This document shows positions 5,735-53,549 of a DNA stretch of 64,000 bases, piece by piece. The position numbers and the translations under genes were made by a program. Origin of the DNA: a virus. Lineage: Duplodnaviria; Caudoviricetes. The stretch's first letter is position 1; each line of letters starts with the position of its first letter. The stretch covers positions 11,494 to 75,493 of IMG/VR virus record IMGVR_UViG_3300042908_001106. The stretch is one strand, 5' to 3'. Below the pieces are notes generated by a model. That model searched no databases and was not told the DNA's origin. It was given only the letters and a program-made list of their open reading frames with translations.

Positions 5735-6270
5735 TAGTTCAACCCTCCCTCTAACAAAAATTGCTCTTGTTCCACAATCACGCTCCAATCGTCATAGTTG
5801 GCATTTAAGGCATCCTGGAGATCTTCTGTAGTCCATTTCGTATAGTGGACAATTTTCTCCAGTAGGAAATCTACGGATTTATTGTCGAACAACTTGTCTA
5901 CAATTACGTCTAACCCAGTTTCAGCAAAAGCAGCTAACAGGACAATTGAACTCTGATTTTTGTTTACTACAGCGTCCCATGTGATTACTTTTGTAAAGTC
6001 TCTGGTTGAGATAGTCTTACTTCGTGTCGCACCTCTATCATTTTTTATCTCGGTTTCCTCTAGGCGACCTGTGTAACCTATATCCCATAAGCCATTGAGC
6101 GTTTTAGTACCCTTTTTAGCCGACTTGCTCAAATACTCTTTATTCCGTCCGATAGCAATACTCGCCCCACCTATTCCGATCCGTTTCTCTCCATCTGGGA
6201 ATAGGTAGCAATCAATAATTTTATCCCCTAGATTCAATTCTGCACGGATTGATCTTACAATATCTGACAT
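5734..6270 (-). CDS. Antirepressor-like (P63C N-terminal-like) protein
   Basis: ELNLGDKIIDCYLFPDGEKR motif; AAGGAG RBS; own TGATATAAT promoter. Confidence 0.6.
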   Translation of the reverse strand: MSDIVRSIRAELNLGDKIIDCYLFPDGEKRIGIGGASIAIGRNKEYLSKSAKKGTKTLNGLWDIGYTGRLEETEIKNDRGATRSKTISTRDFTKVITWDAVVNKNQSSIVLLAAFAETGLDVIVDKLFDNKSVDFLLEKIVHYTKWTTEDLQDALNANYDDWSVIVEQEQFLLEGGLN

Positions 6271-6304
6271 GGTGAACCGTCTCCTTAGAAGTTTTGGTTT
6301 ACTA

Positions 6305-6356
6305 CCCCTGGGTGTTTACGCACCGCGAGGGGTTTTGTTATTATTAATTATATCAT
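6305..6356 (-). promoter_or_regulatory. Extended -10 promoter plus conserved leader hairpin (copy A)
   Basis: Minus strand TGATATAAT followed by CCCCT-CGC-GGTG-CGTAAA-CACC-C-AGGGG. Confidence 0.65.
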
Positions 6357-6408
6357 TTTTTATTAAGTTGTAGTATAGAACATACAATTTAATAAAAACA
6401 ATTTACAT

Positions 6409-6618
6409 CCGCCGTTTAGTCTCCACCATAATCCGATCAAGAGTTTTAACAATTTCGTTTAGGTTTCGTTAACTGGTCTAAAAACTTGATATAATAGATC
6501 GTAGTGGGTTACTTCGTAAAACGTGGATCTACGGCTCCTGGGTGTTTACGCACCACGAGGAGCAATTTTATTTAACAACCCTATAGCCGCCGATTAGTCT
6601 CCACCATAATCCGGTCAA
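6409..6618. repeat. About 32-bp direct repeat pair
   Basis: CCGCCGTTTAGTCTCCACCATAATCCGATCAA (6409-6440) versus CCGCCGATTAGTCTCCACCATAATCCGGTCAA (about 6587-6618). Confidence 0.85.
6486..6572 (+). ncRNA. Putative antisense sRNA containing hairpin copy B
   Basis: TTGATATAAT at 6486, then a TAGATC/GATCTA stem, the GCTCCT...AGGAGC hairpin (6534-6563) and a T-rich tail. Complementary to leader copy A. Confidence 0.35.
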
Positions 6619-6624
6619 TTCTAA

Positions 6625-7029
6625 CTAAGATAAAAAACCAATTTCCCTTTTAAACATCTCAACCGGATCTAACCTCTTAACCGCCCGTTCCGTCCAATCC
6701 CGTCCAGGTATCCAACGCCCGACTCGATAAGCTCTGAAGCCTGTTAAAATCCGTCCTGCGTAGGGTTCTCCTGTGATTGGATCGTGGGGATTCCATTCGT
6801 AATTAGCAACAGTTTTATCGCCTTGTCTTGAGACGTTCAAAACTTGAGAATCGTTAAATCTTCCTGTGTCAATAATGTCTTGATTATCTAAGCCTAAATC
6901 AGAGAATTCGCTAGTGTCTTCAATCACAGCATGAAATTCATTATCAAGAGCCGTCACAACCTCAGCAAAGGCATTGTCAACGGTTTTTAAAACTTTATTT
7001 AATGCAGCTTGATTAATTTTAATAGCCAT
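6625..7029 (-). CDS. Putative tail completion/neck protein
   Basis: Position in the virion operon; DIIDTGRF and PGRDW motifs typical of HK97 gp10-like proteins. Confidence 0.5.
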   Translation of the reverse strand: MAIKINQAALNKVLKTVDNAFAEVVTALDNEFHAVIEDTSEFSDLGLDNQDIIDTGRFNDSQVLNVSRQGDKTVANYEWNPHDPITGEPYAGRILTGFRAYRVGRWIPGRDWTERAVKRLDPVEMFKREIGFLS

Positions 7030-7031
7030 AA

Positions 7032-7427
7032 TTAATTATCAATCCACCATCCCTTAATTTTAGTCCCTGTATATTCCTTTTCCCAAGGCTGTTGATTATG
7101 AATCGAAGCCGAAAACTTACCTTTCTTACCATCACACTCAGCTTCAAACTCACGGGGCAAAACAACACCCGGAGGGAACACCATTGGCTCTACTAGATAG
7201 CCTTGCATATAGCTCGATGATATTCCTAACCCTCCGGGTCTTTGTTGCTTCAAATCATCTTTAGACCCCGTTTCCTTGAGATAACAGAGAAAGGGCTGTT
7301 TAGTTATTGATGGCACAATGTTACCCAGGTTATCCGTTGTTAGACTATCCCCTGGCGTTTCTACCCAGAGTGTAACTTTTAATAAATATCTATCCAGATG
7401 GGATAAAAAGTAACTTTGCCTAACCAT
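7032..7427 (-). CDS. Putative head-tail joining/closure protein
   Basis: Position in the virion operon; TDNLGN motif; 131 aa. Confidence 0.45.
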   Translation of the reverse strand: MVRQSYFLSHLDRYLLKVTLWVETPGDSLTTDNLGNIVPSITKQPFLCYLKETGSKDDLKQQRPGGLGISSSYMQGYLVEPMVFPPGVVLPREFEAECDGKKGKFSASIHNQQPWEKEYTGTKIKGWWIDN

Positions 7428-11971: not shown

Positions 11972-13849
11972 CTAAATAGCAACGTCAAGAGTCCGAACTT
12001 CAACAACTCTTAATTGTTGATCGTTAGACATTGGGGGATTAGAAGCCGGATCTACATCCAAAGCAGCCGCGCATTCATACGAGTTCCAGATGAATCGGTT
12101 AATCCGTCCAAAACCGTCTTCTTTGGCTCGTTTAATGGTAAACGGCATGGCGATTGAACGCCCGATGGTGTCACGCCCTGCGACAAAGGATGACCGAGTG
12201 GTTTTAGCACCCGCTCCGGTAGTCTCAGATTGCACACCCTCAGTACCTACAATTCCTGCACCAAAAGCGTTTGACACAAAGATGTGGAAGTTGGCAACGC
12301 TGAACTGATATCCGTCTGTTCTTCCCAAATCATTCATCGTGGTCTGTTTCAGAAGCGACGTTAAATCATTCATCGCCACGCGGGAGGTGTACCGACTATT
12401 CTCTTGTAGGGAATTGGTCAGTGCCGCAGCCGAGAATGGGTTAGTCACTAGAATATAATGCCCATCATCAAGCGGGGGAATTTGGAGACTCCCATAGCAG
12501 TAAGCATAGAGGTTGGTCAAGAAAGTGAGATTAAGTAATCCACTGTCACCCACGTTCACGTTGCCTACGGTCGTTGTCACAACACCGTTATCGTTATAAA
12601 CAATCCGAGTAGTACCACCCCATAGCTCACGAATCAGTAAGTCTTCAAACTGATTGTAGTTATAGCCAAGGTTGCGCTCAATGAATGGCATCAAATCCAT
12701 CAAGGAAGTCCGCATATAGAACTCAGCAACGGTGAGGGGTGGCATGGTAGCATCCTTGCCTAGACCATACTCCTCTAAAATCGCTTTGACGTGACCCGCC
12801 TCAATAGCTTGATTCGTGGCAGTGATATCTACTAAAGGATCTAACTTCCAAGCATTAGTAGAAGTTGCCGAAGCAGAATATCTAACTCGGGGGATTTGAA
12901 TCGTGTCTCCGACGTTATATCCCAAGGAAATATTGCGATTTGCAAATTGCCAGAAGATAAAAGCAGGAGAGTGGTTGACGCGAGTCAGCGCGCTTAAAGT
13001 TTCCAGGAAAAACGGTGAAATAGTTGTAGGGCTGGTATTATCTGAATTTCGCCCTTGCAACAAACCGCCACGCTTCATTTGTTGATCCAATCCATCAATA
13101 ATAGAATCTCTATTTTGACGAACAAATCTATCCAAATTTCCTGTATCTTTAAACTCTACAATCTCACCCGACAAGGGATTAACAGCAGTAGACAGAGGAC
13201 AATCAGCTTTACTTTCCAGGATACGCTTAACTTCTCTATAGGCATCAAGCCCTGAGATTGAGCGAGTCCGACCTTCTACTTGCAGATAAGGTGAGGGTTT
13301 ATAATCTGACTGAATTTGTTGAACGTTTTGATCTACAACGTTTAAATCAAAGCCTGTATCAGCAAAAATCCGAGTCCAATCTGCTGTTTTTTTGCGCTCC
13401 TCTTTAATACTTTCTTGATGTCTTTTTTCAGCTTCAATCAACTGATCTTTAACTTGTTCAGCTTCTTCTTTGGCTTTTTTAAGTTCATCAAGAGCTTGCT
13501 GAATAATCACAGAATCCTTGTCAGCTTGCGCTTTTTCTTTCTGCTGAATCAAGGATCTTAGTGCCACCATATCAAGTTCAACAGTTTTTCCGTCTTCCCC
13601 AACTTCAATCACAGGATCTTTTTGGGGTTGAATAACGGGAACATCTACTGGACTTTCAGCATTATCTTTTCCGACAATTAAACTCGGTTTTTCCATAGTT
13701 GGATTTTCAATTGGAAGGTCTTCTGGCTTGGGAGCTTGATCGGTCTTGCGTTTTTGCTTTGCAGCATTTAAACGTTTGATTGCATCTTGTTCCACTCCCG
13801 ACTCACTATCAGAAAACGTATCCTTTAATATATTTAAGGCACGCTTCAT
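11972..13849 (-). CDS. Major capsid protein with N-terminal scaffold-like extension
   Basis: 625 aa; acidic coiled-coil N-terminus, then GDTIQIPR and C-terminal DGFGR motifs of HK97-fold capsids; downstream of a protease-like gene. Confidence 0.75.
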   Translation of the reverse strand: MKRALNILKDTFSDSESGVEQDAIKRLNAAKQKRKTDQAPKPEDLPIENPTMEKPSLIVGKDNAESPVDVPVIQPQKDPVIEVGEDGKTVELDMVALRSLIQQKEKAQADKDSVIIQQALDELKKAKEEAEQVKDQLIEAEKRHQESIKEERKKTADWTRIFADTGFDLNVVDQNVQQIQSDYKPSPYLQVEGRTRSISGLDAYREVKRILESKADCPLSTAVNPLSGEIVEFKDTGNLDRFVRQNRDSIIDGLDQQMKRGGLLQGRNSDNTSPTTISPFFLETLSALTRVNHSPAFIFWQFANRNISLGYNVGDTIQIPRVRYSASATSTNAWKLDPLVDITATNQAIEAGHVKAILEEYGLGKDATMPPLTVAEFYMRTSLMDLMPFIERNLGYNYNQFEDLLIRELWGGTTRIVYNDNGVVTTTVGNVNVGDSGLLNLTFLTNLYAYCYGSLQIPPLDDGHYILVTNPFSAAALTNSLQENSRYTSRVAMNDLTSLLKQTTMNDLGRTDGYQFSVANFHIFVSNAFGAGIVGTEGVQSETTGAGAKTTRSSFVAGRDTIGRSIAMPFTIKRAKEDGFGRINRFIWNSYECAAALDVDPASNPPMSNDQQLRVVEVRTLDVAI

Positions 13850-13945
13850 TTTAAGATTGGTAGGTATGCAATTCTGAGTTTATCCCAAGCGTTTAAGCGA
13901 AGTGATACAATTTATTCAGAAGTGATATAGATTGAGGGGGTAGGT

Positions 13946-16018: not shown

Positions 16019-16392
16019 TATTTAGATCCTAAGTTAAATATTTCAATTGGGGTTTTGTAGTCGGGAATCTCCAAAGTTTTAGGAGTCTTAAAATTTCCCT
16101 CTAACTCCTCTATCTGGGATTCAATTATATTCTCAATCGACACCGAAACATAAGCATTAAATAAACCCGCAAGAATCCCTGTAACGGGACTAAATGGCAT
16201 TCCCAGAACAAAATAAACTAGCACGGAACTCTCAAATGTCTGGCAGTATGGACAATTAAACAACTCCCTAAAAAGTTGGTGTTTCTGTTTAAGTGATTCC
16301 CTAATCCTATCAAGCAATTTGTACTTAAACAAAAACCATCTTAAACCAAGAGACAATAACAGGAAAACTAAAACACTTTCAAAATTAGGCAT
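16018..16392 (-). CDS. Membrane protein (DUF1360-like)
   Basis: Hydrophobic helices around ELFNCPYC. Confidence 0.55.
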   Translation of the reverse strand: MPNFESVLVFLLLSLGLRWFLFKYKLLDRIRESLKQKHQLFRELFNCPYCQTFESSVLVYFVLGMPFSPVTGILAGLFNAYVSVSIENIIESQIEELEGNFKTPKTLEIPDYKTPIEIFNLGSK

Positions 16393-16394
16393 AA

Positions 16395-16952
16395 TTAATC
16401 TTCTGAGATTTCTTGAGTTTGTTCTTTATCAAGGTTTTCAAAGTATTCGATTAATACCTTGTTTTGATAGAGTTGATCATCTACCATTGCCAGAGTTTTC
16501 AAAACTTCCATCCCATTTCGAGAGTGAACTTGCGCTCCTGACTTGGTGGCTTTAGAACAAGCCTTTAGGGAGTCTTGCTCATTATTTGCAGCTTTATAGG
16601 CATTGTTGGAAAGGGTGAGGGAATATGCTCCGTTAGTCTCTAGGGCTTTCCTGAACGCTTGCCATGTTTTTTGTTTTTCCTCTAAATCCTGTTGATAAGC
16701 CATTCTGTCCTTTTCTATTGTTGCCTTAATTATTTCTGCCCGTTCGGCTAGGAGTTCGTGTCTGATTTGCTCCCAAATAGGTAGTTTTTTCCATCGCCTT
16801 AAATTTGTTTCTGAGATGTTAAGCCGCCTACCAATCTCTCGGTTATTCAGGTAAGGGTTCTCAATAACCTCCCTGACCGCTTCCCTGATCCTTTCAATGT
16901 TTGGTACTGAAGCAATAGTTTTATTTAGCGCATGGTGACGCAATAACAACAC
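16395..16952 (-). CDS. HTH protein, possible terminase small subunit
   Basis: N-terminal HTH NREIGRRLNISETNLRRW; first gene of the head operon. Confidence 0.5.
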   Translation of the reverse strand: MLLLRHHALNKTIASVPNIERIREAVREVIENPYLNNREIGRRLNISETNLRRWKKLPIWEQIRHELLAERAEIIKATIEKDRMAYQQDLEEKQKTWQAFRKALETNGAYSLTLSNNAYKAANNEQDSLKACSKATKSGAQVHSRNGMEVLKTLAMVDDQLYQNKVLIEYFENLDKEQTQEISED

Positions 16953-16994
16953 TTTAAAGTTAACATGGTTAAAAGTCTTATTGCAAACTAATTT

Positions 16995-17561
16995 ATGAGT
17001 AAACCTAAAATTACTGAGACAGATATCAGCAAACTAACTCCCGATCCGAATAATGCACGGAAAAGAACGCCGTTATCAGCTAAGGTGATTTCCAAATCCT
17101 TAGAACAGTTTGGGGCTTGCCGTTCCATTGTGATCGACGAGAATGATGTTATCAGGGCGGGTAATGGAACCTTTGAGGAAGCGGGTCAATTAGGGATTGA
17201 GAAGGTTTTAGTTGTAGAAGCCGATGGTAATACGATTGTTGCTGTTAAGCGTAAAGGGTTATCAGAGTCGGATTGGAAACAATATGCGATCGCTGATAAT
17301 ACGGCTTCTGATTTCTCAACATGGGACTTTGATCTTTTAAATGATTTAGCTCAAGAGGTAGATTTTAGTGAGTTCTTTCCTGATTATAAATTAAATGAGT
17401 TATTAGAATCGTTTGGCAAGGGTGAAGGGTTTGGCGATACTGAACAGCAAGAGGAAGATGAGGAATCAAAACCACCAGAAGATTTTAAAGAGTATGACGA
17501 AGACATCGAAACAGAACATACTTGTCCTAAGTGTGGTTATAAATGGTCAGGGGGTAAATAA
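16995..17561 (+). CDS. ParB/Srx-like N-terminal domain protein with C-terminal Zn ribbon
   Basis: LTPDPNNAR...SLEQFG...IVID...AGNG...IADN; ends in CPKCGY. Confidence 0.75.
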   Translation: MSKPKITETDISKLTPDPNNARKRTPLSAKVISKSLEQFGACRSIVIDENDVIRAGNGTFEEAGQLGIEKVLVVEADGNTIVAVKRKGLSESDWKQYAIADNTASDFSTWDFDLLNDLAQEVDFSEFFPDYKLNELLESFGKGEGFGDTEQQEEDEESKPPEDFKEYDEDIETEHTCPKCGYKWSGGK

Positions 17562-18632
17562 ATGAATACTAAACCTATTTACCGCGTTCCTCTAATGAAA
17601 GAGATAGAAGAAATACCCTGGAATGGGTTTAATGTTGTCTCTACATTTAGCGGAACAGGCGGATCATGTCTTGGTTATCGGATGGCTGGCTATCGAGTCT
17701 TGTGGGCTAATGAATTTATTCCTGCGGCTCAGGATTCTTATAAAGCTAATCATCCAAATTCAATTCTTGACAGGCGAGATATCCGAGAGATTTCTGCTCA
17801 GGATATCTTAACAGCAACCGGATTGAAAATAGGAGAGATAGATATATTTGATGGCTCTCCCCCTTGTGCAGCTTTTTCAACAGCAGGAAAACGTGAAGCA
17901 GGATGGGGAAAAGTTAAGCAATATTCAGATACCAAGCAAAGAGTTGATGATTTGTTTTTTGAGTACGCTCGACTAATCAAAGGAACACAGCCTAAAGTCT
18001 TTGTTGCTGAAAACGTATCAGGATTAATCAAAGGAACAGCTAAAGGCTACTTCTTAGAAATCCTTAAAACACTCAAAGATTGCGGTTATAACGTCAAGTG
18101 TAAAGTGCTAGATGCTCAATGGCTTGGTGTTCCTCAAATGCGACAACGGACTATCTTTATAGGTGTTAGGAATGATTTGAAGTTAGAACCTGTTCACCCA
18201 AAACCGTTGCATTATCAGTACACAGTTAGAGATGCTTTACCTTGGATAACTCAGATTAGACAAACAGATGTTTTTGTCGAAGCAGAAACCGATATCTCAA
18301 AATATGCAATTGGTAGAGAATGGGACAAAATAAAACAAGGCGAAAGTTCAGAGAAGTATTTTTCTCTGACTAAGCCACACCTAGATAAACCGTCTCCATG
18401 CGTCACCCAAATAGGCGGTGACAATACTTGTGCATCGGTAGTTCATCCCACAGAAAAACGGAAATTTTCAATTCAAGAGTTAAAACGAATTTGCGCTTTT
18501 CCTGATGATTTCATTCTAACAGGTTCCTACGTCCAACAATGGGAACGATTAGGCCGTGCTGTTCCACCTGTTATGATGTCACATATTGCCAAAACAATTC
18601 AATTAGAAATACTAGAAAAATGTGTGGATTAG
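17562..18632 (+). CDS. C5-cytosine DNA methyltransferase-fold enzyme with motif X Asn to Arg (predicted carboxymethyltransferase)
   Basis: Motif I FSGTGG, IV GSPPC, VI ENV, VIII Q.R.R; motif X is GRAVPP instead of GNAVPP. Confidence 0.9.
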   Translation: MNTKPIYRVPLMKEIEEIPWNGFNVVSTFSGTGGSCLGYRMAGYRVLWANEFIPAAQDSYKANHPNSILDRRDIREISAQDILTATGLKIGEIDIFDGSPPCAAFSTAGKREAGWGKVKQYSDTKQRVDDLFFEYARLIKGTQPKVFVAENVSGLIKGTAKGYFLEILKTLKDCGYNVKCKVLDAQWLGVPQMRQRTIFIGVRNDLKLEPVHPKPLHYQYTVRDALPWITQIRQTDVFVEAETDISKYAIGREWDKIKQGESSEKYFSLTKPHLDKPSPCVTQIGGDNTCASVVHPTEKRKFSIQELKRICAFPDDFILTGSYVQQWERLGRAVPPVMMSHIAKTIQLEILEKCVD

Positions 18633-19975
18633 CGGGTACATACAAATCCAGCGTAGATGTAGAGTCTATGCTTCTTAAAATAATACATAGGGGGCGAGAT
18701 GGTCAAGGTGTTCACAAGCATGAAGACACTGTTCATGGTCACGTTAGGCTGTCTTTACTTGATTTAAGTTCGGCATCTAAACAACCTTTTATCTTAAATA
18801 ATTCCACTCTTTCATTTAATGGTGAGATATGGAATTATAGAGATATAAAAAAGAAGTTACAAGACGACGGGTGCAAATTCAATACAACAGGTGACACCGA
18901 AGTATTGAGTCAATTTTTAGATATTTACGGTGTTTCACGGCTAAATCAACTAGAGGGAATGTTTGCTTTTGTATGGAGTAAAGGGGATGAGCATTGGCTT
19001 GTGAGAGACCGTTTTGGTGAGATACCCTTGTATCTGGCAAAAACGAATAAAGGGTATATTTGGGCATCTGAAAGAAAAGCATTTCCTAGTGGTGTTATGC
19101 CTGTTGCCGTTCCTCCGGGCTATGCTTTTAATCTAGTGAAAGGCGAGTGGTTTCAATGGTACAAGCTACCAGGAACAACACCACAGCAAAATATATTAGA
19201 TTGCTTGAATAGGGGTGTAGAACAAAGATTAAATGCTGATGCTCCCGTCTGCTGTCTTATATCGGGCGGATTAGATAGCGTCTTGGTTCTGCAAATAGCA
19301 AAGTCTATAAACAAAAACATCGTAGCTTTTACAGCAAAAATGCGTAATGATTCAAATGATTTACTAGCAGCCAGGAAGATATGTAGTGAGTATGAAATTC
19401 AATTAATAGAAGTGCCAGTATCTATTGATTTAGATTCTTTAACTAACGCAGCCAAGGTAATAGAAATTAACAGCAAAGCTCAAATAGAGATAGCTTCATT
19501 ATGTCTACCATTAGCACAAAGGATAAGGGCAGAAGGCTTTAAATCTTGCTTATCTGGTGAAGCTGCCGACGAGCTTTTTGGTGGTTATGGTAATTTCTGT
19601 ATTCAGGCATCCAAAAGCACAAATACAGAAGTTATATCTCTTAGAAAAAGTCAATTAGCAAAAATGGCAAGAGGTAATTTTGTTAGGTGCAATAAGTCTT
19701 TTATGTATGGTGGCGTAGAGTGTAGATTGCCTTTTATGGATGTGAAGTTAGTTGAATATGCCATAAACTTAGACCTCTCGCAATCACCACCAAATAAAAA
19801 ACTACTGAAATCCGCGTCGGCTAGACTGCTACCTAAATGGGTGATATCCAGGGTTAAGGATACTTTTCAAGGTGGTAGTGGTGTGTCCGATTGGACAGAG
19901 AAAAATATAGCATCGCCAATAAAATTTTACAACAACGAACTAAAGAAAACTTTTGGATACTTACCCAAGGATTAA
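18620..19975 (+). CDS. Asparagine synthetase B-like glutamine amidotransferase
   Basis: True start MCG at 18620 (Ntn Cys2); HRGRD, NGEIWN, DTE, RDRFGE, SGGLDS and SGEAADELFGGY motifs. Confidence 0.9.
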   Translation: MCGLAGTYKSSVDVESMLLKIIHRGRDGQGVHKHEDTVHGHVRLSLLDLSSASKQPFILNNSTLSFNGEIWNYRDIKKKLQDDGCKFNTTGDTEVLSQFLDIYGVSRLNQLEGMFAFVWSKGDEHWLVRDRFGEIPLYLAKTNKGYIWASERKAFPSGVMPVAVPPGYAFNLVKGEWFQWYKLPGTTPQQNILDCLNRGVEQRLNADAPVCCLISGGLDSVLVLQIAKSINKNIVAFTAKMRNDSNDLLAARKICSEYEIQLIEVPVSIDLDSLTNAAKVIEINSKAQIEIASLCLPLAQRIRAEGFKSCLSGEAADELFGGYGNFCIQASKSTNTEVISLRKSQLAKMARGNFVRCNKSFMYGGVECRLPFMDVKLVEYAINLDLSQSPPNKKLLKSASARLLPKWVISRVKDTFQGGSGVSDWTEKNIASPIKFYNNELKKTFGYLPKD

Positions 19976-19976
19976 C

Positions 19977-20681
19977 ATGAATAATTATCACGTCCCATCT
20001 AAAGATAAATGGGAATTTGACGAATCAGTAACAGACATTTTTGATGATATGTTGGCTCGTTCAATTCCTCAATACGAGGTAATGAGAGACGCTGTTACCA
20101 ATATCGCTCGTGAATACATAAAACCCGCCAGTTCTGTCATAGATATTGGATGCTCAAGAGGTGAGCAGATATCTCGACTAATTCAATCCTATGGGACTAA
20201 TTGCACCTATTATGGAATCGAAGTTAGTCAACCGATGATTAACGCGAGTAGGGAAAAGTTTAAGGGTTTTGAATGCGTCAGTTTACATGAATTAGATTTA
20301 AGAAAAGATTGGTTAACTCTTAAAAACGTATCCGTCACTTTGTCGGTTTTAACTTTACAGTTTATTCCGATTGAATACAGATTAAGACTACTCAAAAAAA
20401 TCTATGATTCAACTCGAAAAGGCGGGTGTTTTATTTTAGTTGAAAAAGTTATTGGGGGGTCTGCTGATATTGACAGTTTATTGACCAATCAGTATTATAA
20501 CTTAAAACATCAGAATGGTTATTCTATTTATGAGATAGAACGGAAAAAATTAAGCCTAGAGGGTGTACTTGTTCCGGTAACAGCTAATTGGAATGAAGAA
20601 ATGCTTAGATTGTCTGGTTTTACTGAGGTTGATTGTTTTTGGCGTTGGATGAACTTTTCTGGATGGATTGCTGTTAAGTAG
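19977..20681 (+). CDS. cmoA: CmoA-like carboxy-S-adenosylmethionine synthase
   Basis: WEFDESVTDIFDDMLARSIPQY, DIGCSRG, LTLQF, LVEK, SLEGVL and WMNF match the CmoA pattern; ATG 1 nt after the AsnB-like stop. Confidence 0.8.
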   Translation: MNNYHVPSKDKWEFDESVTDIFDDMLARSIPQYEVMRDAVTNIAREYIKPASSVIDIGCSRGEQISRLIQSYGTNCTYYGIEVSQPMINASREKFKGFECVSLHELDLRKDWLTLKNVSVTLSVLTLQFIPIEYRLRLLKKIYDSTRKGGCFILVEKVIGGSADIDSLLTNQYYNLKHQNGYSIYEIERKKLSLEGVLVPVTANWNEEMLRLSGFTEVDCFWRWMNFSGWIAVK

Positions 20682-20725
20682 AATGAAACTAATGGAAAGA
20701 TTGCCAGATTAATTAATATTAACTG

Positions 20726-20777
20726 TGATATAATATTAATAGTAAATGCCCTTCGCGATGTTTCAGCATCCAAGGGC
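20726..20777 (+). promoter_or_regulatory. Extended -10 promoter plus leader hairpin (copy C)
   Basis: TGATATAAT then GCCCTT-CGC-GATG-TTTCAG-CATC-C-AAGGGC. Confidence 0.65.
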
Positions 20778-20803
20778 TGTAAACCTGATTCAGAGGTATC
20801 ACA

Positions 20804-21610
20804 ATGAATAACTTTAACAAAGAATTGGCTCTAACCTTAATTGATTCTAGCATTGAGTTTCCCGTTGACTTTGATGACGCGATGCAATGGTGGGACTGTC
20901 GGACTAAGGATGGAAGTCTTACCACTCGACGGCAGTTAGTCGCAAAACTCAAGCAAAACTTTGATCAAGGATTAGATTGGACTTTTGCACAAATTTATGA
21001 AAAAGTCCAAACAGGGCGACCCGTTGATAAAATCTACCTGACAGTGGACACCTTCAAAGAAATGGGAATGATGTTACCTAGTGGCAAGGGCAAAGAGATC
21101 CGGCGTTATTTCCTTGAGTGTGAACGGGAGTTAAAACAACTTAGATCAGAATCCGCCCAAACTCAAACAGTCTCATCCCAACCCACGCCGCGCGATATTG
21201 CTGATTTTGTCTCTGTCATCCTAAATATCGCGGGTTTGGATCAGAGTATGATTGCAGCGTCCGCAGCTAATCACGTCGCTAAATATTATCCGGCGCTCCG
21301 TCCCTCGGCTGAAGACTTAAAAAAGGAATTAGTCATCGAGACATCGGAAAAACTTCTCACGCCCACCGAACTCGGATTAATCCTAGAGCAGCGCACCGGA
21401 ATTAAACACTCAGCGCAACGGGTCAACAAACTCCTATCTGAGAATGGATTGCAAACCCCGAACCCTCACGGGAAAGATCCGGCTTGGTTGCCAACTCTAA
21501 AAGGATCAGGATTTTCTAAGTTGTTACTCGCCGCACAGAAGGGGATTAAGGACGCAACCCGTCAACATTTGCAATGGTTTGAATCCGTTGTTGATGTTTT
21601 GGCGGTGTAG
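20804..21610 (+). CDS. Phage antirepressor (AntA/AntB-like N-terminus, Ant C-terminal-like)
   Basis: FPVDFDDA, LTVDTFKEMGM...KGKEIRRYFLECE, LTPTELG...VNKLL motifs. Confidence 0.8.
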   Translation: MNNFNKELALTLIDSSIEFPVDFDDAMQWWDCRTKDGSLTTRRQLVAKLKQNFDQGLDWTFAQIYEKVQTGRPVDKIYLTVDTFKEMGMMLPSGKGKEIRRYFLECERELKQLRSESAQTQTVSSQPTPRDIADFVSVILNIAGLDQSMIAASAANHVAKYYPALRPSAEDLKKELVIETSEKLLTPTELGLILEQRTGIKHSAQRVNKLLSENGLQTPNPHGKDPAWLPTLKGSGFSKLLLAAQKGIKDATRQHLQWFESVVDVLAV

Positions 21611-30670: not shown

Positions 30671-32419
30671 TTAGGCTTCTGTTGTGGTTTGATTGTCCTT
30701 ATCATCTCCCCCTAGTACGAAGTAAGGGGCGACTTTAATTAGTTTCCGTTCCCATTGTTCTCTAGGAACTCCTTTCATTTTCCCGACTGGTTTATTGACT
30801 TCGTAGCCCAATCTCCAGTGGGGAGATTTAGGGGAATGATTGCCTTGTCTTTGGATTCTGTTGTCATCGGAGCGGATCTTTTTCTCGGCATAACTTAGGT
30901 TTAGAACTCTAGGATATAAAACCTTTTCTGTCTTAACAGTACCAAAACCTTTATTATTCAACAGAAATCTTTTTGAAGTGTATCCATTTTTCTGTTCCTC
31001 AATCGCTAGGTCTGGCTTTGAAACAATCAACAACAAACACTGGGTTATTAATTTTGTAATAGCAAAAGTCTTAAACCTTTCAGTATTGCTTATGACATTG
31101 TTTTTTACCATACTGTTTTCAAGTATCAATATAGTATTGTTTAACGGCTGCCCGTTGGACGATACCGTTGAAAGAGAAAGACTATCTACTTTGTAGTAAC
31201 TATCTTCAATATAATTATCGCTATTAACTACAAGATTTTTTTTCTCCAAGCCTTCTAAAAAAGATTCTGTGTTTTTGAAAGAATCTTTTTGCAACAAGGT
31301 ATCCCGACGAGAAAGAAAACAGTGATCTATATAGCCAAGTGCTTTGTTGGTTTCAATGTCAACTGGATTGTTCTCTACATAAAAATAAACTGTATTTTTA
31401 GGAAAAAGAAACAATATATTGTCAAATATGCAATCAATACTTGAGAGTAAGACATTAAAATAAGATTCACTAAAATTAGTGTCAACACTTAGTAGCATAT
31501 CGATCAATTCTTTTGTTATGACAAATACAGGCGACTGAGTAGACATCCATTTCTGCACAGATGAAACATAAGTAGCTTCTTTTGCTATTCCGACATCAGA
31601 AACAATTTCTTTAATATCAAAAGACTGACATAGATGAATGTTTTTTATGAGTGAGTACAAAAAAATATTAATCATGTCATGCCAGTCTATATAGTTTTCA
31701 GGTATTTTGTAGGGATATTTTTTTAATATGGACAACCTTAGAGACTCAATTTCAATTATTCCATCATCGGTATGGATTGAGGTAGACTTGATACTGTCTT
31801 TTACTAAACCCTCTCTACTTTTGTTCTTACCCTGTGTTTTATTATTCGTGATCTTATTTTGTGATACTTCCTCAAAACAATCTTTGTCATCAATTGAAAT
31901 GTTGGTACACGATCCATTGATAATAAGTTTACAGTAGTCGGTATTATCTATTTTATACTCAGATTCATTTTCTTCTAGTTCCTTATTGCCAAGGAAATGA
32001 TTAAGCACTTTACTTTCTTCTACACTCTCAAACCACATCCTTAAATCTATGTTTCTGTCTTTACAGGCAACAAAATAAAAACAGGATAGGTCAACATGGA
32101 GGAAGTACAAAACCCTCGGTTTTATTATTTTAAAAAAAATATAAAAAACCTTTTTTGTCGCCTTAACTATGTCGCCAGAATCCTTGAAAAGATTGCTTAT
32201 TTTTATTTCGCCATTTCCTTGACCATAATGTTGCGAAAGTTCTAATTGATCAACAATCCGATCAACTAGATAAAAAATAAACTTTACATCGTCAGTCAAA
32301 TGTTTAGTTCCTGAGTCTTCAAGGTATTTAGAATTTTCTTCGTCAAGGCATTTATACAATTCCTGTTTTCTTTCTTGAAACCTTGTCTCAAAATCCGAAG
32401 CTCTATCATCATGACTCAT
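30671..32419 (-). CDS. Large hypothetical protein
   Basis: 582 aa, AT-rich, AGGAG RBS, C-terminal SPKSPHWRLG motif. Confidence 0.7.
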   Translation of the reverse strand: MSHDDRASDFETRFQERKQELYKCLDEENSKYLEDSGTKHLTDDVKFIFYLVDRIVDQLELSQHYGQGNGEIKISNLFKDSGDIVKATKKVFYIFFKIIKPRVLYFLHVDLSCFYFVACKDRNIDLRMWFESVEESKVLNHFLGNKELEENESEYKIDNTDYCKLIINGSCTNISIDDKDCFEEVSQNKITNNKTQGKNKSREGLVKDSIKSTSIHTDDGIIEIESLRLSILKKYPYKIPENYIDWHDMINIFLYSLIKNIHLCQSFDIKEIVSDVGIAKEATYVSSVQKWMSTQSPVFVITKELIDMLLSVDTNFSESYFNVLLSSIDCIFDNILFLFPKNTVYFYVENNPVDIETNKALGYIDHCFLSRRDTLLQKDSFKNTESFLEGLEKKNLVVNSDNYIEDSYYKVDSLSLSTVSSNGQPLNNTILILENSMVKNNVISNTERFKTFAITKLITQCLLLIVSKPDLAIEEQKNGYTSKRFLLNNKGFGTVKTEKVLYPRVLNLSYAEKKIRSDDNRIQRQGNHSPKSPHWRLGYEVNKPVGKMKGVPREQWERKLIKVAPYFVLGGDDKDNQTTTEA

Positions 32420-32451
32420 TTTAATATTCTCCTAATATTTACAATCCAAAA

Positions 32452-49665: not shown

Positions 49666-50244
49666 ATGACCGCAGCAACCAAGAAGATATTTGAAAGACT
49701 TTTAAAAGTCGGTGACTGGGTAGAGATTGACCCCCACAAACACCGCCCAAACTATTTAATTAAGGGAACAGCTTGGCGGGTTGAGGGATTTAATTCAATA
49801 AAACAAACCTGTCAAATAACTAACGAAAAAACAGGGAATTTACATAGATCGGAAACCCTAGATTTTGAGGAAGTTTCCGATTCATCCCCCTTCAAAAAAA
49901 CCGACATTGCCCAACTTAAAAGCGACCCTCGATATATTGGGCGGATTGTTAATTGTCGAAGAAATAAAATAACAATTGAATGGGCATGGGGTGGAGTCCG
50001 AGAATCCCTAGACTCGGACAAAATAAAGTTATTTGTTCGGATGGTCATGGGGGAACAAATATTGTTGGGTGATTATGCTTTTAAAGAAGGCGATCGCGTT
50101 CACACCAGTGATAAGAATTTTGGCAATGTGATTCTAACTGTTCGGGAGTGTTTACCATCTGGAATGGTTGAATTAATGGCTTCAAACAATCCCAGTTTAA
50201 TCCTCCCCGGCTGTGGCTTAACAATTGTTGAGGAGGATTTCTAA
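49666..50244 (+). CDS. Hypothetical protein with repeated KOW/SH3-like units
   Basis: LKVGDWV, FKKTDIA and FKEGDRV repeats. Confidence 0.55.
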   Translation: MTAATKKIFERLLKVGDWVEIDPHKHRPNYLIKGTAWRVEGFNSIKQTCQITNEKTGNLHRSETLDFEEVSDSSPFKKTDIAQLKSDPRYIGRIVNCRRNKITIEWAWGGVRESLDSDKIKLFVRMVMGEQILLGDYAFKEGDRVHTSDKNFGNVILTVRECLPSGMVELMASNNPSLILPGCGLTIVEEDF

Positions 50245-51278
50245 TGCTAACATTTGCAACATTATTTACAGGCGGTGGTGGCGCAGATTTAGGCCTAGAG
50301 TCAGCAGGATTTAAGTCTATCTGGGGAGTTGAGCGAGATCCTAAAATTGCTAAAGTTGCCCAAGTAAATCTCCCTAATACTAAAATATTTAATTCTTGCG
50401 TCGGTGAAATTCGCACTTATCTCATGGAACGGGTTGATTTGCTTTGGATGAGTCCCCCATGTCAGCAATATTCAATGGCGCGGCGTGGTGATATTCCCGA
50501 TCACAAAGACAAAGATGCGGGGTTGTATTGTCGGGACTATATAGCTACATTAAACCCTCGATGGGTGGTTCTTGAGAATGTACCAGGATATGCTAAGTCG
50601 CCGACATTTGAGGCGATATTGCGATCGCTGATTGATTGTGGATATCGCTACCATTGGTTGATTCTTGACGCGGCGGATTATGGGGTTCCGCAAAGCCGGA
50701 AACGATTAATCATGTGGGCAGTCAAAAACTCAGAACCCCTCCCATATTTTCCCGAATCAAAGCCTAGAAAGGGATGGTATCAAGCTATTAGTGATTTAAT
50801 CCCTGAGATGAATGATTGTGAGCTTGCAGACTGGCAGATTAAGCGACTGAATGAACTGGGTTGTTTACCAGAAAAAGCCTTGATTGATATTGGGAAACAA
50901 CTCATTAGACAGGCTACAGTTCGGGAGTCAAACGATCCAAGTTTTACTATTGTGGGGGGTCACGTCAATTCGCACTCACCCATCCTGTTAATCCCCCGAG
51001 CGGGAGCCTGCATCAAGAATATTCTCCCGACTCCGCAGAACAAACCCTGCCCAACAATTCGAGCTATGGCATCGGGGCGGCATACCCACTGGGCGGACAT
51101 CATGGAGGGAAGTCAAGTTAAACGAATTAGTCAGAAAGCGACGGCACGGCTTCAGACTTTCCCTGATGATTACAAACTCCCAGAAGCCAAATCTTTAAGC
51201 CAACAAATAATCGGGAATGCAGTGCCGCCGTTGTTGGCTAAAGAATTAGGTCTGGCAATCTTAAAATCAATTAACTAA
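50244..51278 (+). CDS. C5-cytosine DNA methyltransferase (canonical)
   Basis: LFTGGGG, SPPCQ, ENV, Q.RKR, motif X GNAVPP. Confidence 0.9.
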   Translation: MLTFATLFTGGGGADLGLESAGFKSIWGVERDPKIAKVAQVNLPNTKIFNSCVGEIRTYLMERVDLLWMSPPCQQYSMARRGDIPDHKDKDAGLYCRDYIATLNPRWVVLENVPGYAKSPTFEAILRSLIDCGYRYHWLILDAADYGVPQSRKRLIMWAVKNSEPLPYFPESKPRKGWYQAISDLIPEMNDCELADWQIKRLNELGCLPEKALIDIGKQLIRQATVRESNDPSFTIVGGHVNSHSPILLIPRAGACIKNILPTPQNKPCPTIRAMASGRHTHWADIMEGSQVKRISQKATARLQTFPDDYKLPEAKSLSQQIIGNAVPPLLAKELGLAILKSIN

Positions 51279-53530: not shown

Positions 53531-53549
53531 TGATTATTGATCATCAATT

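What the first reader, a model, noticed from the sequence alone, without database searches (positions are those of the whole stretch)
18552..18563. Motif X Asn-to-Arg swap in the MTase, with a canonical control in the same genome
Seen: this MTase has LGRAVPP (Arg332, CGT at 18555-18557), while the second C5-MTase has IGNAVPP (AAT at 51216-51218). Known: this Asn lines the SAM pocket (M.HhaI N304), and a basic substitution at the equivalent site (M.MpeI N374K) lets the enzyme use carboxy-SAM. Inference: this is a natural cofactor-switch residue that independently supports the operon model and could serve as a search signature.
Basis: partly seen in the sequence, partly recalled or inferred. Interest (0 to 1): 0.8.

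Follow-up and report, generated by a model that had tools for sequence, protein, structure and literature searches.

The report
Arginine-switch phage DNA carboxymethyltransferase operon
A phage gene that looks like a cytosine methyltransferase carries the arginine that makes such enzymes use carboxy-SAM instead of SAM, and it sits beside genes that make carboxy-SAM and probably amidate the product; the mechanism was published in December 2025, so this is a new member of a known family.

Summary
The C5-MTase at 17562-18632 has LGRAVPP with Arg332 (CGT 18555-18557). The second C5-MTase at 50244-51278 has IGNAVPP with Asn325 (AAT 51216-18). HMMER aligns Arg332 with M.HhaI Asn304 and with Arg350 of SpCmoX (PDB 8YF3), the top PDB hit by sequence (E 9.4e-72) and by fold (TM 0.81/0.86).

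Yang et al., Nat Commun, Dec 2025 (PMC12783734) showed that SpCmoX is a Cx-SAM-dependent DNA cytosine C5-carboxymethyltransferase. Its Arg350 contacts the carboxylate, and SPPC+Arg was used as a search signature (5,615 sequences, 4,257 CmoA).

My own tests agree:
- Arg-type relatives have cmoA alongside in 77/78 viral loci, 41/41 assessable metagenome loci and 23/23 genome loci.
- Asn-type relatives have it in 0/2 and 0/10, and MT2-type loci in 0/57.

This work adds four points:
- Arg always comes with loss of the motif IV Gln (HhaI Gln82; Ala103 here).
- The ligase here is the uncharacterised glutamine-amidotransferase type, so the predicted product is 5-carbamoylmethylcytosine.
- The target-recognition domain is swapped between near-identical cassettes.
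- Some phages pair cmoA with MTases that lack the Arg.

Verdict: a new member of a known kind, of modest interest.

The parts
16995..17561 (+). ParB-like (ParBc-type) protein, 188 aa, first gene of the cassette. Its stop codon abuts the MTase start codon.
   Evidence: phrog_620 ParB-like partition protein, E 9.2e-32. No Pfam hit at E 0.01. 72% nt identity to the ParB-like/nuclease gene of Planktothrix phage PaV-LD. A ParB-like ORF lies next to the MTase in most related loci. Yang et al. report 1,660 ParBc proteins in CmoX contigs.
17562..18632 (+). CmoX-family DNA cytosine C5-carboxymethyltransferase homologue, 356 aa
   Evidence: PF00145 E 1.3e-59. Best PDB sequence hit is 8yf3_A, E 9.4e-72 over residues 22-353. 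42% identity to S-B43 CmoX. AF2 model pLDDT 92.3, with best fold match 8yf3, TM 0.81/0.86.
17856..17870 (+). Motif IV: S99-P100-P101-C102 (catalytic Cys) followed by A103, in place of the canonical Gln (M.HhaI Gln82)
   Evidence: All Arg-type relatives examined have A/S/T/C (K or F in two isolated phages) at this position and never Q.
18552..18563 (+). Motif X G331-R332-A333-V334. R332 (CGT 18555-57) replaces the canonical Asn (M.HhaI N304) and equals SpCmoX R350.
18620..19975 (+). Asparagine-synthetase-like amidoligase with an N-terminal glutamine amidotransferase domain, 451 aa. This is the glutamine-type 'CmoY' cluster. It overlaps the MTase stop by 13 nt.
   Evidence: PF13522/PF13537 GATase plus PF00733 Asn_synthase. 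TIGR01536 scores 257.4 bits, below the 267.1 cut-off. Best PDB hit is E. coli AsnB 1ct9, E 8.8e-37. It starts M-C-G-L-A-G and has the PP-loop SGGLDS at residue 215. 32% identity to TurkishDelight gp124; no BLASTP hit to SpCmoY at E 1e-3.
19977..20681 (+). CmoA-like carboxy-SAM synthase, 234 aa from the ATG at 19977, 1 nt after the ligase stop. An alternative TTG start lies at 19953.
   Evidence: TIGR00740 E 3.9e-48, 164.2 bits, below the 193.3 cut-off. The experimentally active SpCmoA scores only 115.6 bits on the same model. Best PDB hits are CmoA structures 1im8 (E 1.1e-32) and 4gek (E 4.1e-31); the next family scores 1e-9. Start-codon context.
50244..51278 (+). Second, canonical C5-MTase (344 aa), the internal control. 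Motif IV is C73-Q74 and motif X is G-N325 (AAT 51216-18).
   Evidence: PF00145 E 5.7e-51. Best PDB hit is M.HaeIII 1dct_A, E 1.5e-21. Residues. None of 57 related loci contains cmoA.

Best explanation
Genes 16995-20681 form a phage DNA hypermodification cassette of the CmoA/CmoX/CmoY kind. The CmoA homologue converts SAM plus prephenate into carboxy-SAM. The MTase homologue (CmoX family) attacks cytosine C6 with Cys102 and transfers the carboxymethyl group of Cx-SAM to C5, giving 5-carboxymethylcytosine. Arg332, at the place of the canonical motif X Asn, binds the cofactor's extra carboxylate. Ala103, at the place of the canonical motif IV Gln, makes room for it. The glutamine-amidotransferase/asparagine-synthetase-like enzyme then most likely adenylates the new carboxyl group and amidates it with glutamine-derived ammonia, giving 5-carbamoylmethylcytosine. 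The modification presumably protects phage DNA from host restriction. The second MTase (Gln74/Asn325) is an ordinary SAM-dependent 5mC enzyme. What is shown here: the homology, the residue equivalences, the gene order and the co-occurrence. What is shown elsewhere, on a 42%-identical homologue: the chemistry of CmoA and CmoX and the role of the Arg. What is inferred: activity of this particular protein, the role of Ala103, the ammonia amidation product, the target sequence and the anti-restriction role.
For: Alignment and fold:
- R332 aligns with SpCmoX R350 and M.HhaI N304.
- The SpCmoX residues that Yang et al. name as Cx-SAM or catalytic contacts (F25, E47, F48, D69, C98, R350) are all conserved here as F29, E51, F52, D73, C102 and R332.
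- 8yf3 is the best PDB match by sequence (E 9.4e-72) and by fold (E 1.8e-32, TM 0.81/0.86, against 0.66-0.73 for M.HaeIII, M.HhaI and 3g7u).

Biochemistry of the homologue (PMC12783734, Results):
- SpCmoX uses only Cx-SAM, and R350N is inactive.
- E. coli lacking cmoA gives no 5cxmC.
- SpCmoA is a Cx-SAM synthase.

Co-occurrence with cmoA:
- Of 80 IMG/VR loci related to this MTase, 78 are Arg-type. 77 of those have a CmoA ORF beside the MTase, and the exception (L041) ends 1 nt after it. The 2 Asn-type loci (L046, L049, about 60% identical) have none.
- In 80 metagenome loci, 59 of 68 Arg-type MTases have CmoA. The 9 without have only 87-1010 nt downstream. With at least 1500 nt downstream the count is 41 of 41. 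It is 0 of 10 for Gln/Asn-type.
- In genome contigs, 23 of 23 full-length Ala/Arg MTases have CmoA next door.
- None of 57 loci of the canonical MT2 type has CmoA.
- Isolated phages S-B43, TurkishDelight, Mcat8 and PaBG (adjacent) and Erwinia Y3 (about 18 kb apart) are Arg-type with CmoA. CL131 (Gln/Asn) and FpV9 (Ser/Met) have none in the loci read.

Other points:
- No CmoB (TIGR00452) is found in the 75-kb record, so a tRNA cmo5U role lacks its transferase.
- Motif IV: M.HhaI Gln82 and Asn304 both line the pocket of the transferable group, and Q82A cuts methylation about 16-fold (PMC3526304, passages).
- Ligase: it has the N-terminal Cys, NGEI and the SGGLDS PP-loop, and aligns with AsnB over residues 21-426. 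The same gene order P-X-Ylong-A occurs in 23 of 80 related loci, and 25 of 26 long ligase ORFs have M-C-G near the N-terminus.
Against: - No biochemical or modification data exist for this protein or this phage. All public runs that hold the cassette are kept as contigs only.
- The CmoA homologue scores below NCBIfam's equivalog cut-off (164.2 against 193.3 bits). The proven SpCmoA scores lower still (115.6).
- The ligase is not a close relative of the characterised SpCmoY (no BLASTP hit at E 1e-3). Yang et al. could not obtain soluble enzyme from the glutamine-type cluster, so the amide product is untested anywhere.
- The Ala103 role is correlative. Only 6 phylogenetically independent Arg/non-Arg contrasts were available, and the sign test was not significant (p 0.25-1). 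Non-Gln residues also occur with Asn (T/V/E+N, 12 of 150 representatives).
- The loci in the co-occurrence counts are related to one another, so the counts overstate the number of independent events.
- The target sequence is unknown. The target-recognition part differs from SpCmoX and even from near-identical cassettes.
Confidence: 0.85

Rival explanations
1. The MTase is an ordinary SAM-dependent 5-methylcytosine methyltransferase. On this view Arg332 is neutral variation, and the neighbouring CmoA and asparagine-synthetase genes serve host-like tRNA modification or amino-acid metabolism.
For: The full set of canonical C5-MTase motifs is present. cmoA is annotated as 'tRNA methyltransferase' in many phage records. 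The engineered M.MpeI N374K and M.MedI N377K enzymes still methylate with SAM (passages of PMC12015181).
Against: SpCmoX wild type accepted only Cx-SAM. Arg-type enzymes have cmoA alongside in every assessable locus, and Asn-type relatives in none. There is no CmoB in the record. The motif IV Gln, which matters for methyl transfer in M.HhaI, is replaced by Ala. The genes overlap or abut, as in a single operon.
Confidence: 0.04
2. The enzyme is promiscuous. It transfers both methyl (from SAM) and carboxymethyl (from Cx-SAM), so the phage DNA carries a mixture whose ratio depends on CmoA activity.
For: Engineered Asn-to-Lys enzymes use both cofactors. CmoB also accepts both, with a preference for Cx-SAM (passages of PMC10491745).
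Against: [quoted passage not shown] Loss of the motif IV Gln is expected to weaken methyl transfer. In S-B43 DNA only the final glycyl product was reported.
Confidence: 0.08
3. CmoX works as described, but the ligase attaches something other than ammonia. This could be an amino acid, as SpCmoY does with glycine, or another amine. The glutaminase domain would then be inactive or used differently.
For: The only characterised CmoY ligates glycine. Yang et al. see several ligase clusters with different active-site residues. The protein scores below the AsnB equivalog cut-offs (257.4 against 267.1, and 236.6 against 499) and is about 100 residues shorter than AsnB (451 against 553).
Against: The N-terminal Cys and the GATase motifs are intact, and 25 of 26 long-type homologues keep M-C-G. 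That conservation would not be expected for a dead domain. Yang et al. also infer glutamine-derived ammonia for this cluster.
Confidence: 0.2

Closest known systems
SpCmoX of Synechococcus phage S-B43 (PDB 8YF3; Yang et al., Nat Commun 2025, PMC12783734)
   Same: Both have the C5-MTase fold, the SPPC catalytic motif, Arg at the M.HhaI Asn304 position, conserved Cx-SAM contacts (F, E, F, D), a small residue after the catalytic Cys, and a cmoA gene in the same cluster. Identity is 42% and the top PDB hit by sequence and by fold is 8YF3.
   Different: The gene order is ParB-CmoX-ligase-CmoA here and CmoA-CmoY-CmoX in S-B43. The target-recognition region is divergent, so the GC specificity of SpCmoX cannot be carried over. 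The host and phage type also differ: this is a 75-kb record with an integrase, whereas S-B43 is a 214-kb Kyanoviridae phage.
Streptomyces phage TurkishDelight gp122-gp125 (ParB-like, methyltransferase, glutamine amidotransferase-domain protein, methyltransferase)
   Same: The gene order and domain content are the same: ParB, Arg-type MTase (57% identical), a 466-aa GATase+Asn-synthase ligase (32% identical) and CmoA. This is probably the glutamine-type ligase cluster that Yang et al. represent by A0A7T0Q3R0. I could not check that accession link.
   Different: The host is an actinomycete. The MTase carries a large insertion in the variable region (423 aa). CmoA is only 24% identical. It is uncharacterised experimentally.
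Engineered M.MpeI N374K / M.MedI N377K (unnatural 5cxmC writers)
   Same: A basic residue at the motif X Asn position pairs with the Cx-SAM carboxylate (passages of PMC12015181; Discussion of PMC12783734).
   Different: These are Lys, not Arg. They are single substitutions in CG-specific bacterial enzymes that keep SAM activity. The natural enzyme has also lost the motif IV Gln, and by analogy with SpCmoX it is Cx-SAM-specific.
E. coli CmoA/CmoB tRNA cmo5U pathway
   Same: The cofactor and the CmoA chemistry are the same. CmoB also holds the carboxymethyl group with basic residues (Lys91, Arg315, and Tyr200).
   Different: The acceptor there is tRNA ho5U and the transferase is CmoB, which is absent from this record. 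Here the acceptor is DNA cytosine C5 and the transferase is a C5-MTase homologue.
E. coli asparagine synthetase B (1CT9)
   Same: Both have a two-domain Ntn-glutaminase plus PP-loop ATP-pyrophosphatase architecture (E 8.8e-37).
   Different: The window protein scores below the equivalog cut-offs and is shorter. It sits in a DNA-modification operon, so the carboxylate to be amidated is inferred to be 5cxmC in DNA rather than aspartate.

Membership tests
CmoX (DNA cytosine C5-carboxymethyltransferase, Yang et al. 2025) | C5-cytosine MTase domain and fold | tested here: met
   PF00145 E 1.3e-59, residues 23-347. AF2 model pLDDT 92.3. Foldseek top hit 8yf3, TM 0.81/0.86.
CmoX (DNA cytosine C5-carboxymethyltransferase, Yang et al. 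2025) | 'SPPC' motif with the catalytic Cys (SpCmoX S95-C98) | tested here: met
   S99-P100-P101-C102 aligned to S95-C98 of 8yf3.
CmoX (DNA cytosine C5-carboxymethyltransferase, Yang et al. 2025) | Arg at the SpCmoX R350 / M.HhaI N304 position | tested here: met
   R332 aligned to R350 and to N304.
CmoX (DNA cytosine C5-carboxymethyltransferase, Yang et al. 2025) | Conserved cofactor contacts (SpCmoX F25, E47, F48, D69) and the cytosine-contacting Glu and Arg | tested here: met
   F29, E51, F52 and D73. E150 lies in ENV, and R194/R196 lie in QMRQR. All three are invariant in the 28-sequence alignment A2.
CmoX (DNA cytosine C5-carboxymethyltransferase, Yang et al. 2025) | cmoA in the genomic neighbourhood | tested here: met
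   The CmoA homologue lies 1.3 kb downstream in the same operon.
CmoX (DNA cytosine C5-carboxymethyltransferase, Yang et al. 2025) | Cx-SAM-dependent carboxymethyl transfer to DNA cytosine C5 | not testable with these tools
   Needs an enzyme assay or LC-MS of modified DNA.
CmoA (carboxy-SAM synthase, TIGR00740) | Score above NCBIfam's equivalog cut-off | tested here: not met
   164.2 bits against a cut-off of 193.3. Calibration: the experimentally active SpCmoA scores 115.6, PaBG 130.5 and TurkishDelight 89.5. The cut-off therefore excludes proven phage CmoAs.
CmoA (carboxy-SAM synthase, TIGR00740) | Closest solved relatives are CmoA, well separated from generic class I MTases | tested here: met
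   1im8 E 1.1e-32 and 4gek E 4.1e-31 over the full length; the next family scores 1.3e-9.
CmoA (carboxy-SAM synthase, TIGR00740) | Prephenate- and SAM-binding catalytic residues | not tested
   I found no residue list in the passages read, and the primary CmoA structure papers were not read.
CmoY in the strict sense (SpCmoY, 5cxmC-glycine ligase) | Asn-synthetase-type ATP-dependent (PP-loop) ligase domain next to CmoX/CmoA | tested here: met
   PF00733 E 1.7e-37. SGGLDS at residue 215. The profile built from the window ligase's relatives, short upstream forms included, finds SpCmoY at E 7.2e-37.
CmoY in the strict sense (SpCmoY, 5cxmC-glycine ligase) | Single-domain, about 270 aa, no glutaminase domain, with glycine-carboxylate-binding residues | tested here: not met
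   The window protein is 451 aa with a GATase domain and has no BLASTP hit to SpCmoY at E 1e-3. The glycine-binding residues are in Supplementary Fig. 8, which I could not see.
Asparagine synthetase B (TIGR01536 / NF006949) | Score above the equivalog cut-off | tested here: not met
   257.4 against 267.1 bits, and 236.6 against 499 bits.

The most novel reading that the evidence does not exclude
Arg332/Ala103 may be one state of a two-residue 'pocket code' in this phage C5-MTase clade. The two positions are the residue after the catalytic Cys and the residue after the motif X Gly. Among the 150 nearest 50%-cluster representatives the pairs are Gln/Asn (48), small/Arg (74), Thr|Val|Glu/Asn (12), Glu/Asp (5), Asp/Leu (3), Asp/Gln, Asp/Met and Ala/Gln (1 each), with 5 truncated. 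Ser/Met occurs in Flavobacterium phages. Staphylococcus phages pair cmoA with an M.MpeI-like MTase that has neither Asn nor Arg there. On this reading some of the other states mark transfer of yet other groups or use of other SAM derivatives. In this window, the glutamine-type ligase would turn 5cxmC into 5-carbamoylmethylcytosine, a DNA base that has not been demonstrated chemically.
Probability: 0.2. Interest if true: 0.7.

Novelty: new member of a known kind. Interest (0 to 1): 0.3.

Why it matters
That is a good check on the scan, but it adds little new knowledge. Three things could still matter.

1. This cassette belongs to the glutamine-amidotransferase ligase class, whose product nobody has measured. 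The published attempt failed because the enzyme was insoluble. A freshwater-phage orthologue is a fresh candidate for showing 5-carbamoylmethylcytosine in DNA.

2. The obligatory pairing of the Arg with loss of the motif IV Gln may explain why SpCmoX R350N was dead rather than converted to a methyltransferase. It suggests a double-mutant test, and it gives a tighter search signature.

3. Near-identical cassettes carry different target-recognition domains. That gives a natural panel of carboxymethyltransferases with different sequence specificities, which is useful for DNA-labelling and sequencing methods that now rely on engineered M.MpeI or M.MedI.

Tried and rejected
1. Polarity of the Asn-type relatives L046/L049. 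A 53-row quick tree nested them inside the Arg clade (SH-aLRT 91-93). I then dropped 10 rows: L130, L131, window MT2, L082, L122, FpV9, L134, L136, L138 and PaBG. In the resulting 43-row tree they grouped with the Asn-type outgroup CL131 (support 79), and the careful search did not finish. Reversion versus ancestral state is unresolved, and I make no claim.

2. Phylogenetically independent test of the motif IV / motif X pairing. FastTree on 146 rows gave only 6 independent contrasts on supported branches. Motif IV changed in the same direction in about 2, in the opposite direction in 0, and did not change in about 4 (p 0.25-1). The result is not significant. The pairing is reported as a count, not as proven co-evolution.

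3. Partner genes for the Glu/Asp pocket type.
   - The viral-contig scan with P0092 gave 2 loci, both with Ser after the catalytic Cys and with CmoA alongside; the pattern I used did not read their motif X.
   - The scan with P0038 (Asp/Leu) gave none.
   - The metagenome scan gave two Glu/Asp loci (L152, L153). In L152 the downstream ORFs had no Pfam hit before a terminase. No partner was found.

4. Promoter and terminator scan of 16300-21000. It found 12 promoter-like sites against 13.6 expected, and 2 terminator-like sites against 2.8 expected. This is no evidence either way.

5. Evidence of modification in reads. All 24 runs listed are kept as assembled contigs, which cannot show base modification.

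6. Host. The genome-contig hits closest to the window (L232, L233, 69% identical) are short contigs in MAG bins of unrelated phyla. The rest are Verrucomicrobiota MAGs at 53-73% identity. No host call is made. Cyanobacterial affinity rests only on the ParB gene's similarity to Planktothrix phage PaV-LD.

7. CmoA catalytic residues. No residue list appeared in the passages read, so this was not tested.

8. Residue-level alignment to M.MpeI. 4dkj did not appear among the shown alignments for the window protein. For the Staphylococcus phage MTase the alignment stopped before motif X.

9. Literature.
   - For PMC12783734 I read the abstract, Introduction, Results and Discussion, plus find passages. 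Its supplements were not seen. They may hold the residue logo, the R350N data and the ligase active-site residues.
   - For PMC3526304, PMC12015181 and PMC10491745 I read find passages only.
   - The original M.MpeI N374K paper was not seen.
   - Searches for later work on natural CmoX/CmoY or on carbamoylmethylcytosine listed no paper on the natural system other than Yang et al. 'Gln' and 'motif IV' occur 0 times in its main text.

Full report
**Observation**

The window is bases 11494-75493 of a 75,493-bp IMG/VR virus record (CheckV completeness 78%).

- ORF 17562..18632 (+, 356 aa) is a full-length C5-cytosine methyltransferase homologue (PF00145 E 1.3e-59). It reads L-G-R-A-V-P-P at residues 330-336, with R332 = CGT at 18555-18557.
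- ORF 50244..51278 (+, 344 aa) is a second C5-MTase (PF00145 E 5.7e-51). It reads I-G-N-A-V-P-P, with N325 = AAT at 51216-18.

**Residue equivalence**

- phmmer against PDB chains gives 8yf3_A as by far the best hit (E 9.4e-72, residues 22-353 against 18-371). R332 sits on R350 of that chain.
- The alignment to M.HhaI (10mh_A) puts R332 on N304. It puts A103, the residue after the catalytic C102, on Q82. The alignment to M.HaeIII puts R332 on the motif X Asn.
- An AlphaFold2 model from a 28-sequence alignment has pLDDT 92.3 and pTM 0.92. Only the catalytic-loop region (residues about 101-130) has lower confidence.
- Foldseek ranks 8yf3 first (E 1.8e-32, TM 0.81/0.86), ahead of M.HaeIII, 3g7u and M.HhaI (TM 0.66-0.73).

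**What is already published**

8YF3 is SpCmoX of Synechococcus phage S-B43. Yang et al. (Nat Commun, 7 Dec 2025, PMC12783734; I read the abstract, Introduction, Results and Discussion) report the following.

- Phage CmoA makes carboxy-SAM.
- SpCmoX transfers the carboxymethyl group to cytosine C5 in GC motifs.
- 5cxmC formation in E. coli needs cmoA.
- In the 1.9 Å structure, Arg350 replaces M.HhaI Asn304 and contacts the carboxymethyl group.
- The wild type accepts only Cx-SAM, and R350N accepts neither cofactor.
- SpCmoY ligates glycine to 5cxmC.
- A jackhmmer search of IMG/VR v4, UniProtKB and MGnify, filtered for SPPC + R350, gave 5,615 candidates, with 4,257 CmoA, 2,251 ligases and 1,660 ParBc proteins in their contigs.
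- They state the parallel with the engineered M.MpeI N374K.

The proposed R-to-N experiment has been done on the homologue.

**The cassette here**

Four genes are packed head to tail.

| Gene | Coordinates | Evidence |
|---|---|---|
| ParB-like | 16995-17561 | phrog_620 E 9.2e-32, |
| MTase | 17562-18632 | see above |
| Ligase, 451 aa | 18620-19975 (13-nt overlap with the MTase) | Two GATase domains plus Asn_synthase; best PDB hit E. coli AsnB, E 8.8e-37; starts M-C-G; has NGEI and the PP-loop SGGLDS |
| CmoA homologue | ATG at 19977, 1 nt after the ligase stop, to 20681 | Best PDB hits are CmoA structures 1im8/4gek at E 1e-32 to 4e-31, against 1e-9 for the next family |

- The CmoA homologue scores 164.2 bits on TIGR00740, below the 193.3 cut-off. 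The biochemically proven SpCmoA scores only 115.6, so the cut-off is not informative for phage enzymes.
- All SpCmoX residues named as cofactor or catalytic contacts are conserved here: F29, E51, F52, D73, C102 and R332.
- CmoB is absent from the record.

**Independent test of the Arg-cmoA association**

| Sample | Arg-type MTases with CmoA | Non-Arg MTases with CmoA |
|---|---|---|
| viral contigs, best 80 of 124 relatives of the MTase, 53-100% identity | 77 of 78; the exception ends 1 nt after the MTase | 0 of 2 Asn-type (L046, L049; about 60% identical; about 10 kb and 3 kb of downstream sequence) |
| viral contigs, 57 loci related to the second MTase, 58 MTase ORFs | no Arg-type present | 0 of 57 loci |
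| genome contigs, 25 loci, mostly Verrucomicrobiota MAGs by record title | 23 of 23 full-length Ala/Arg MTases; one partial Arg-type also has it | one split ORF has none |

Isolated phages (11 records read):
- S-B43, TurkishDelight, Mcat8 and PaBG have an Arg-type MTase with adjacent CmoA.
- Erwinia phage Y3 has an Arg-type 742-aa MTase about 18 kb from its CmoA.
- CL131 (Gln/Asn) and FpV9 (Ser/Met) have no CmoA in the loci read.

These loci are relatives of one another, so the counts are not counts of independent events.

**Limits of the signature**

Of the 9 isolated-phage records with CmoA, 4 lack an Arg-type MTase.
- Two Staphylococcus phages have an M.MpeI-like C5-MTase beside cmoA (best PDB hits 8c56/4dkj). 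It keeps the motif IV Gln and, in a MAFFT alignment, has Gly where Asn or Arg would be.
- Aeromonas phage HJ05 and Alcaligenes phage Afa-NA1 have no C5-MTase relative in the whole record at E 0.001.

The Arg is therefore a specific marker but not a complete one for cmoA-linked DNA modification.

**A second, paired position**

- In every Arg-type sequence I read, the canonical motif IV Gln after the catalytic Cys is replaced:
  - 78 of 78 viral loci (A 75, S 2, C 1).
  - 74 of 74 Arg-type among the 150 best 50%-cluster representatives (A 48, S 21, T 3, C 2).
  - 68 of 68 metagenome ORFs.
  - 23 of 23 genome ORFs.
  - S, A, S, K and F in S-B43, TurkishDelight, Mcat8, PaBG and Y3.
- Gln occurs only with Asn (48 of 48 among the representatives).
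- Lukinavičius et al. 2012 (PMC3526304, passages) showed that M.HhaI Gln82, Tyr254 and Asn304 line the space of the transferable group. They also showed that Q82A lowers methylation about 16-fold.
- Loss of this Gln may explain why SpCmoX R350N was dead rather than a methyltransferase. It predicts that a double reversion would be needed.
- The main text of Yang et al. does not mention this position ('Gln' and 'motif IV': 0 occurrences). Its supplements were not visible.
- The pairing is correlative. Only 6 independent contrasts were available, and the test was not significant.
- Three of the rare-state assignments (P0035, P0132, P0148) were not confirmed by the pattern check.

**The ligase**

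- Three architectures occur among the 80 related viral loci:
  - ParB-MTase-long ligase-CmoA, as here (23 loci, plus 4 cut or split variants).
  - ParB-MTase-CmoA without a ligase (21 loci, including L006, whose MTase is 83% identical to the window's).
  - A short ligase of about 280 aa upstream of the MTase (19 + 5 loci).
- 25 of 26 long ligases keep M-C-G near the N-terminus.
- The window ligase has no BLASTP similarity to SpCmoY at E 1e-3 and is 32% identical to TurkishDelight gp124.
- Yang et al. describe such a glutamine-amidase-bearing cluster as the second largest. They infer ammonia as the substrate and report that the recombinant enzyme was insoluble.
- The product 5-carbamoylmethylcytosine is therefore an inference here and is unverified anywhere I could search.

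**Other context**

- The record is phage-like, with an integrase (53541-54686), a DnaB helicase and a replication initiator.
- GC content is 41%, and GGCC is depleted to 0.25 of expectation.
- The cassette occurs nearly unchanged (at least 82% of sampled words) in 20 public runs from 17 studies of lake or fresh water. Two of those runs may be the source of this DNA, and all are held as contigs only.
- Between cassettes whose flanking genes and MTase residues 1-210 are 85-100% identical, the target-recognition part (about residues 211-300) is replaced. The sequence specificity therefore probably differs among close relatives and cannot be inferred from SpCmoX.

**Verdict**

- The mechanism is already known from a 42%-identical homologue. 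The signature has already been applied to the collection this record comes from.
- This is a new, uncharacterised member of the CmoX/CmoA system, of the glutamine-type ligase class.
- Interest is modest (0.3).
- Confidence that R332 marks a Cx-SAM-dependent carboxymethyltransferase is 0.85. Confidence in the amide product is about 0.6.

Noticed in passing
window 18190-18460 (MTase residues ~211-300), compared with L005:10001-11134, L007:3152-4150 and L030:2131-3201: The target-recognition domain is mosaic. In cassettes whose ParB, ligase and CmoA are 82-100% identical to the window's, and whose MTase residues 1-210 are 85-100% identical, the variable region is replaced. In L007 it is 54% identical over 39 aligned residues with 79 gap columns; in L030 it is 34% over 67 residues. 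This suggests that carboxymethylation specificity switches between close relatives.
   Followed up: partly
L046:9965-11155 and L049:541-1749 (viral contigs): Two MTases about 60% identical to the window's carry Gln after the catalytic Cys and Asn in motif X (LGNSVPP). They have a ParB neighbour but no CmoA. They are natural counterparts of the double reversion. Their placement inside or beside the Arg clade is unresolved.
   Followed up: partly
P0092, P0100, P0101, P0116, P0133 (Glu/Asp); P0038, P0107, P0132 (Asp/Leu); P0118, P0124, P0112; L152:506-2365 and L153:1377-2936: Close relatives (49-74% identity) carry other pocket pairs at the same two positions: Glu/Asp, Asp/Leu, Asp/Gln, Asp/Met, Ala/Gln and Thr|Val|Glu/Asn. 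No CmoA and no obvious partner gene lies beside the two Glu/Asp loci read. Their function is unknown.
   Followed up: partly
L144:5926-6993 (Flavobacterium phage FpV9); L134, L136, L138: A Ser/Met pocket type (SPPCS... and GMSVPP) occurs in Flavobacterium phage FpV9. Two of the three viral contigs with this type (L134, L136) have a ParB-like gene just upstream, and L138 has overlapping ParB-like hits in other frames; none has CmoA. These sequences form one well-supported clade (SH-aLRT 100) in the quick tree.
   Followed up: no
L146:9983-11682 (Staphylococcus phage SPbeta-like); L149:9992-12510 (vB-SscS-F1): cmoA lies directly beside an M.MpeI-like C5-MTase. In vB-SscS-F1 a short Asn-synthase-like gene sits between them. 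The MTase keeps the motif IV Gln and shows neither Asn nor Arg after the motif X Gly in a MAFFT alignment. It could be a second, Arg-independent kind of carboxymethyltransferase. The alignment at motif X was not confirmed by HMMER.
   Followed up: partly
L147:2645-3382 and 6257-7420 (Aeromonas phage HJ05); L148 (Alcaligenes phage Afa-NA1): These phages have CmoA but no C5-MTase relative anywhere in the record at E 0.001. In HJ05 a DAHP synthase (the first shikimate-pathway enzyme, upstream of the CmoA co-substrate prephenate) lies about 3 kb from cmoA, among ParB-like and unknown proteins. The acceptor enzyme is unknown.
   Followed up: no
L236-L256 (genome contigs): ParB / Arg-type MTase / CmoA cassettes occur in Verrucomicrobiota MAGs, some on contigs of 0.4-6 Mb. 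Several copies occur per genome: 4 loci in one MAG and 5 in another by record title. This suggests prophages or another mobile element.
   Followed up: no
L009:8237-8970 and L010:2529-3262: In two near-identical relatives the CmoA reading frame is split into two overlapping ORFs (residues 1-169 at 99% identity, then the rest). This is either a frameshift or an assembly error.
   Followed up: no
whole window: GGCC is strongly under-represented (28 observed against 112.6 expected, ratio 0.25). GCGC is at 0.67 and the GC dinucleotide is near expectation (0.95). The canonical second MTase's best PDB match is the GGCC enzyme M.HaeIII, but its specificity is not known.
   Followed up: no
window 53541-54686, 47895-49232, 46151-47326: Integrase (phrog_1 E 2.4e-44), DnaB-like helicase and a replication initiator are present, so the phage is probably temperate. 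The large ORFs 11972-13879, 30671-32431 and 32452-34431 have no PHROG match at E 1e-5.
   Followed up: no
window 16995-20681: The cassette is found nearly unchanged (82-98% of sampled 31-mers) in 20 public DNA runs from 17 studies, all labelled lake, fresh, drinking or aquatic water or plain 'metagenome'. Two of those runs may be the source of this DNA. The phage lineage is therefore widespread in fresh water.
   Followed up: no
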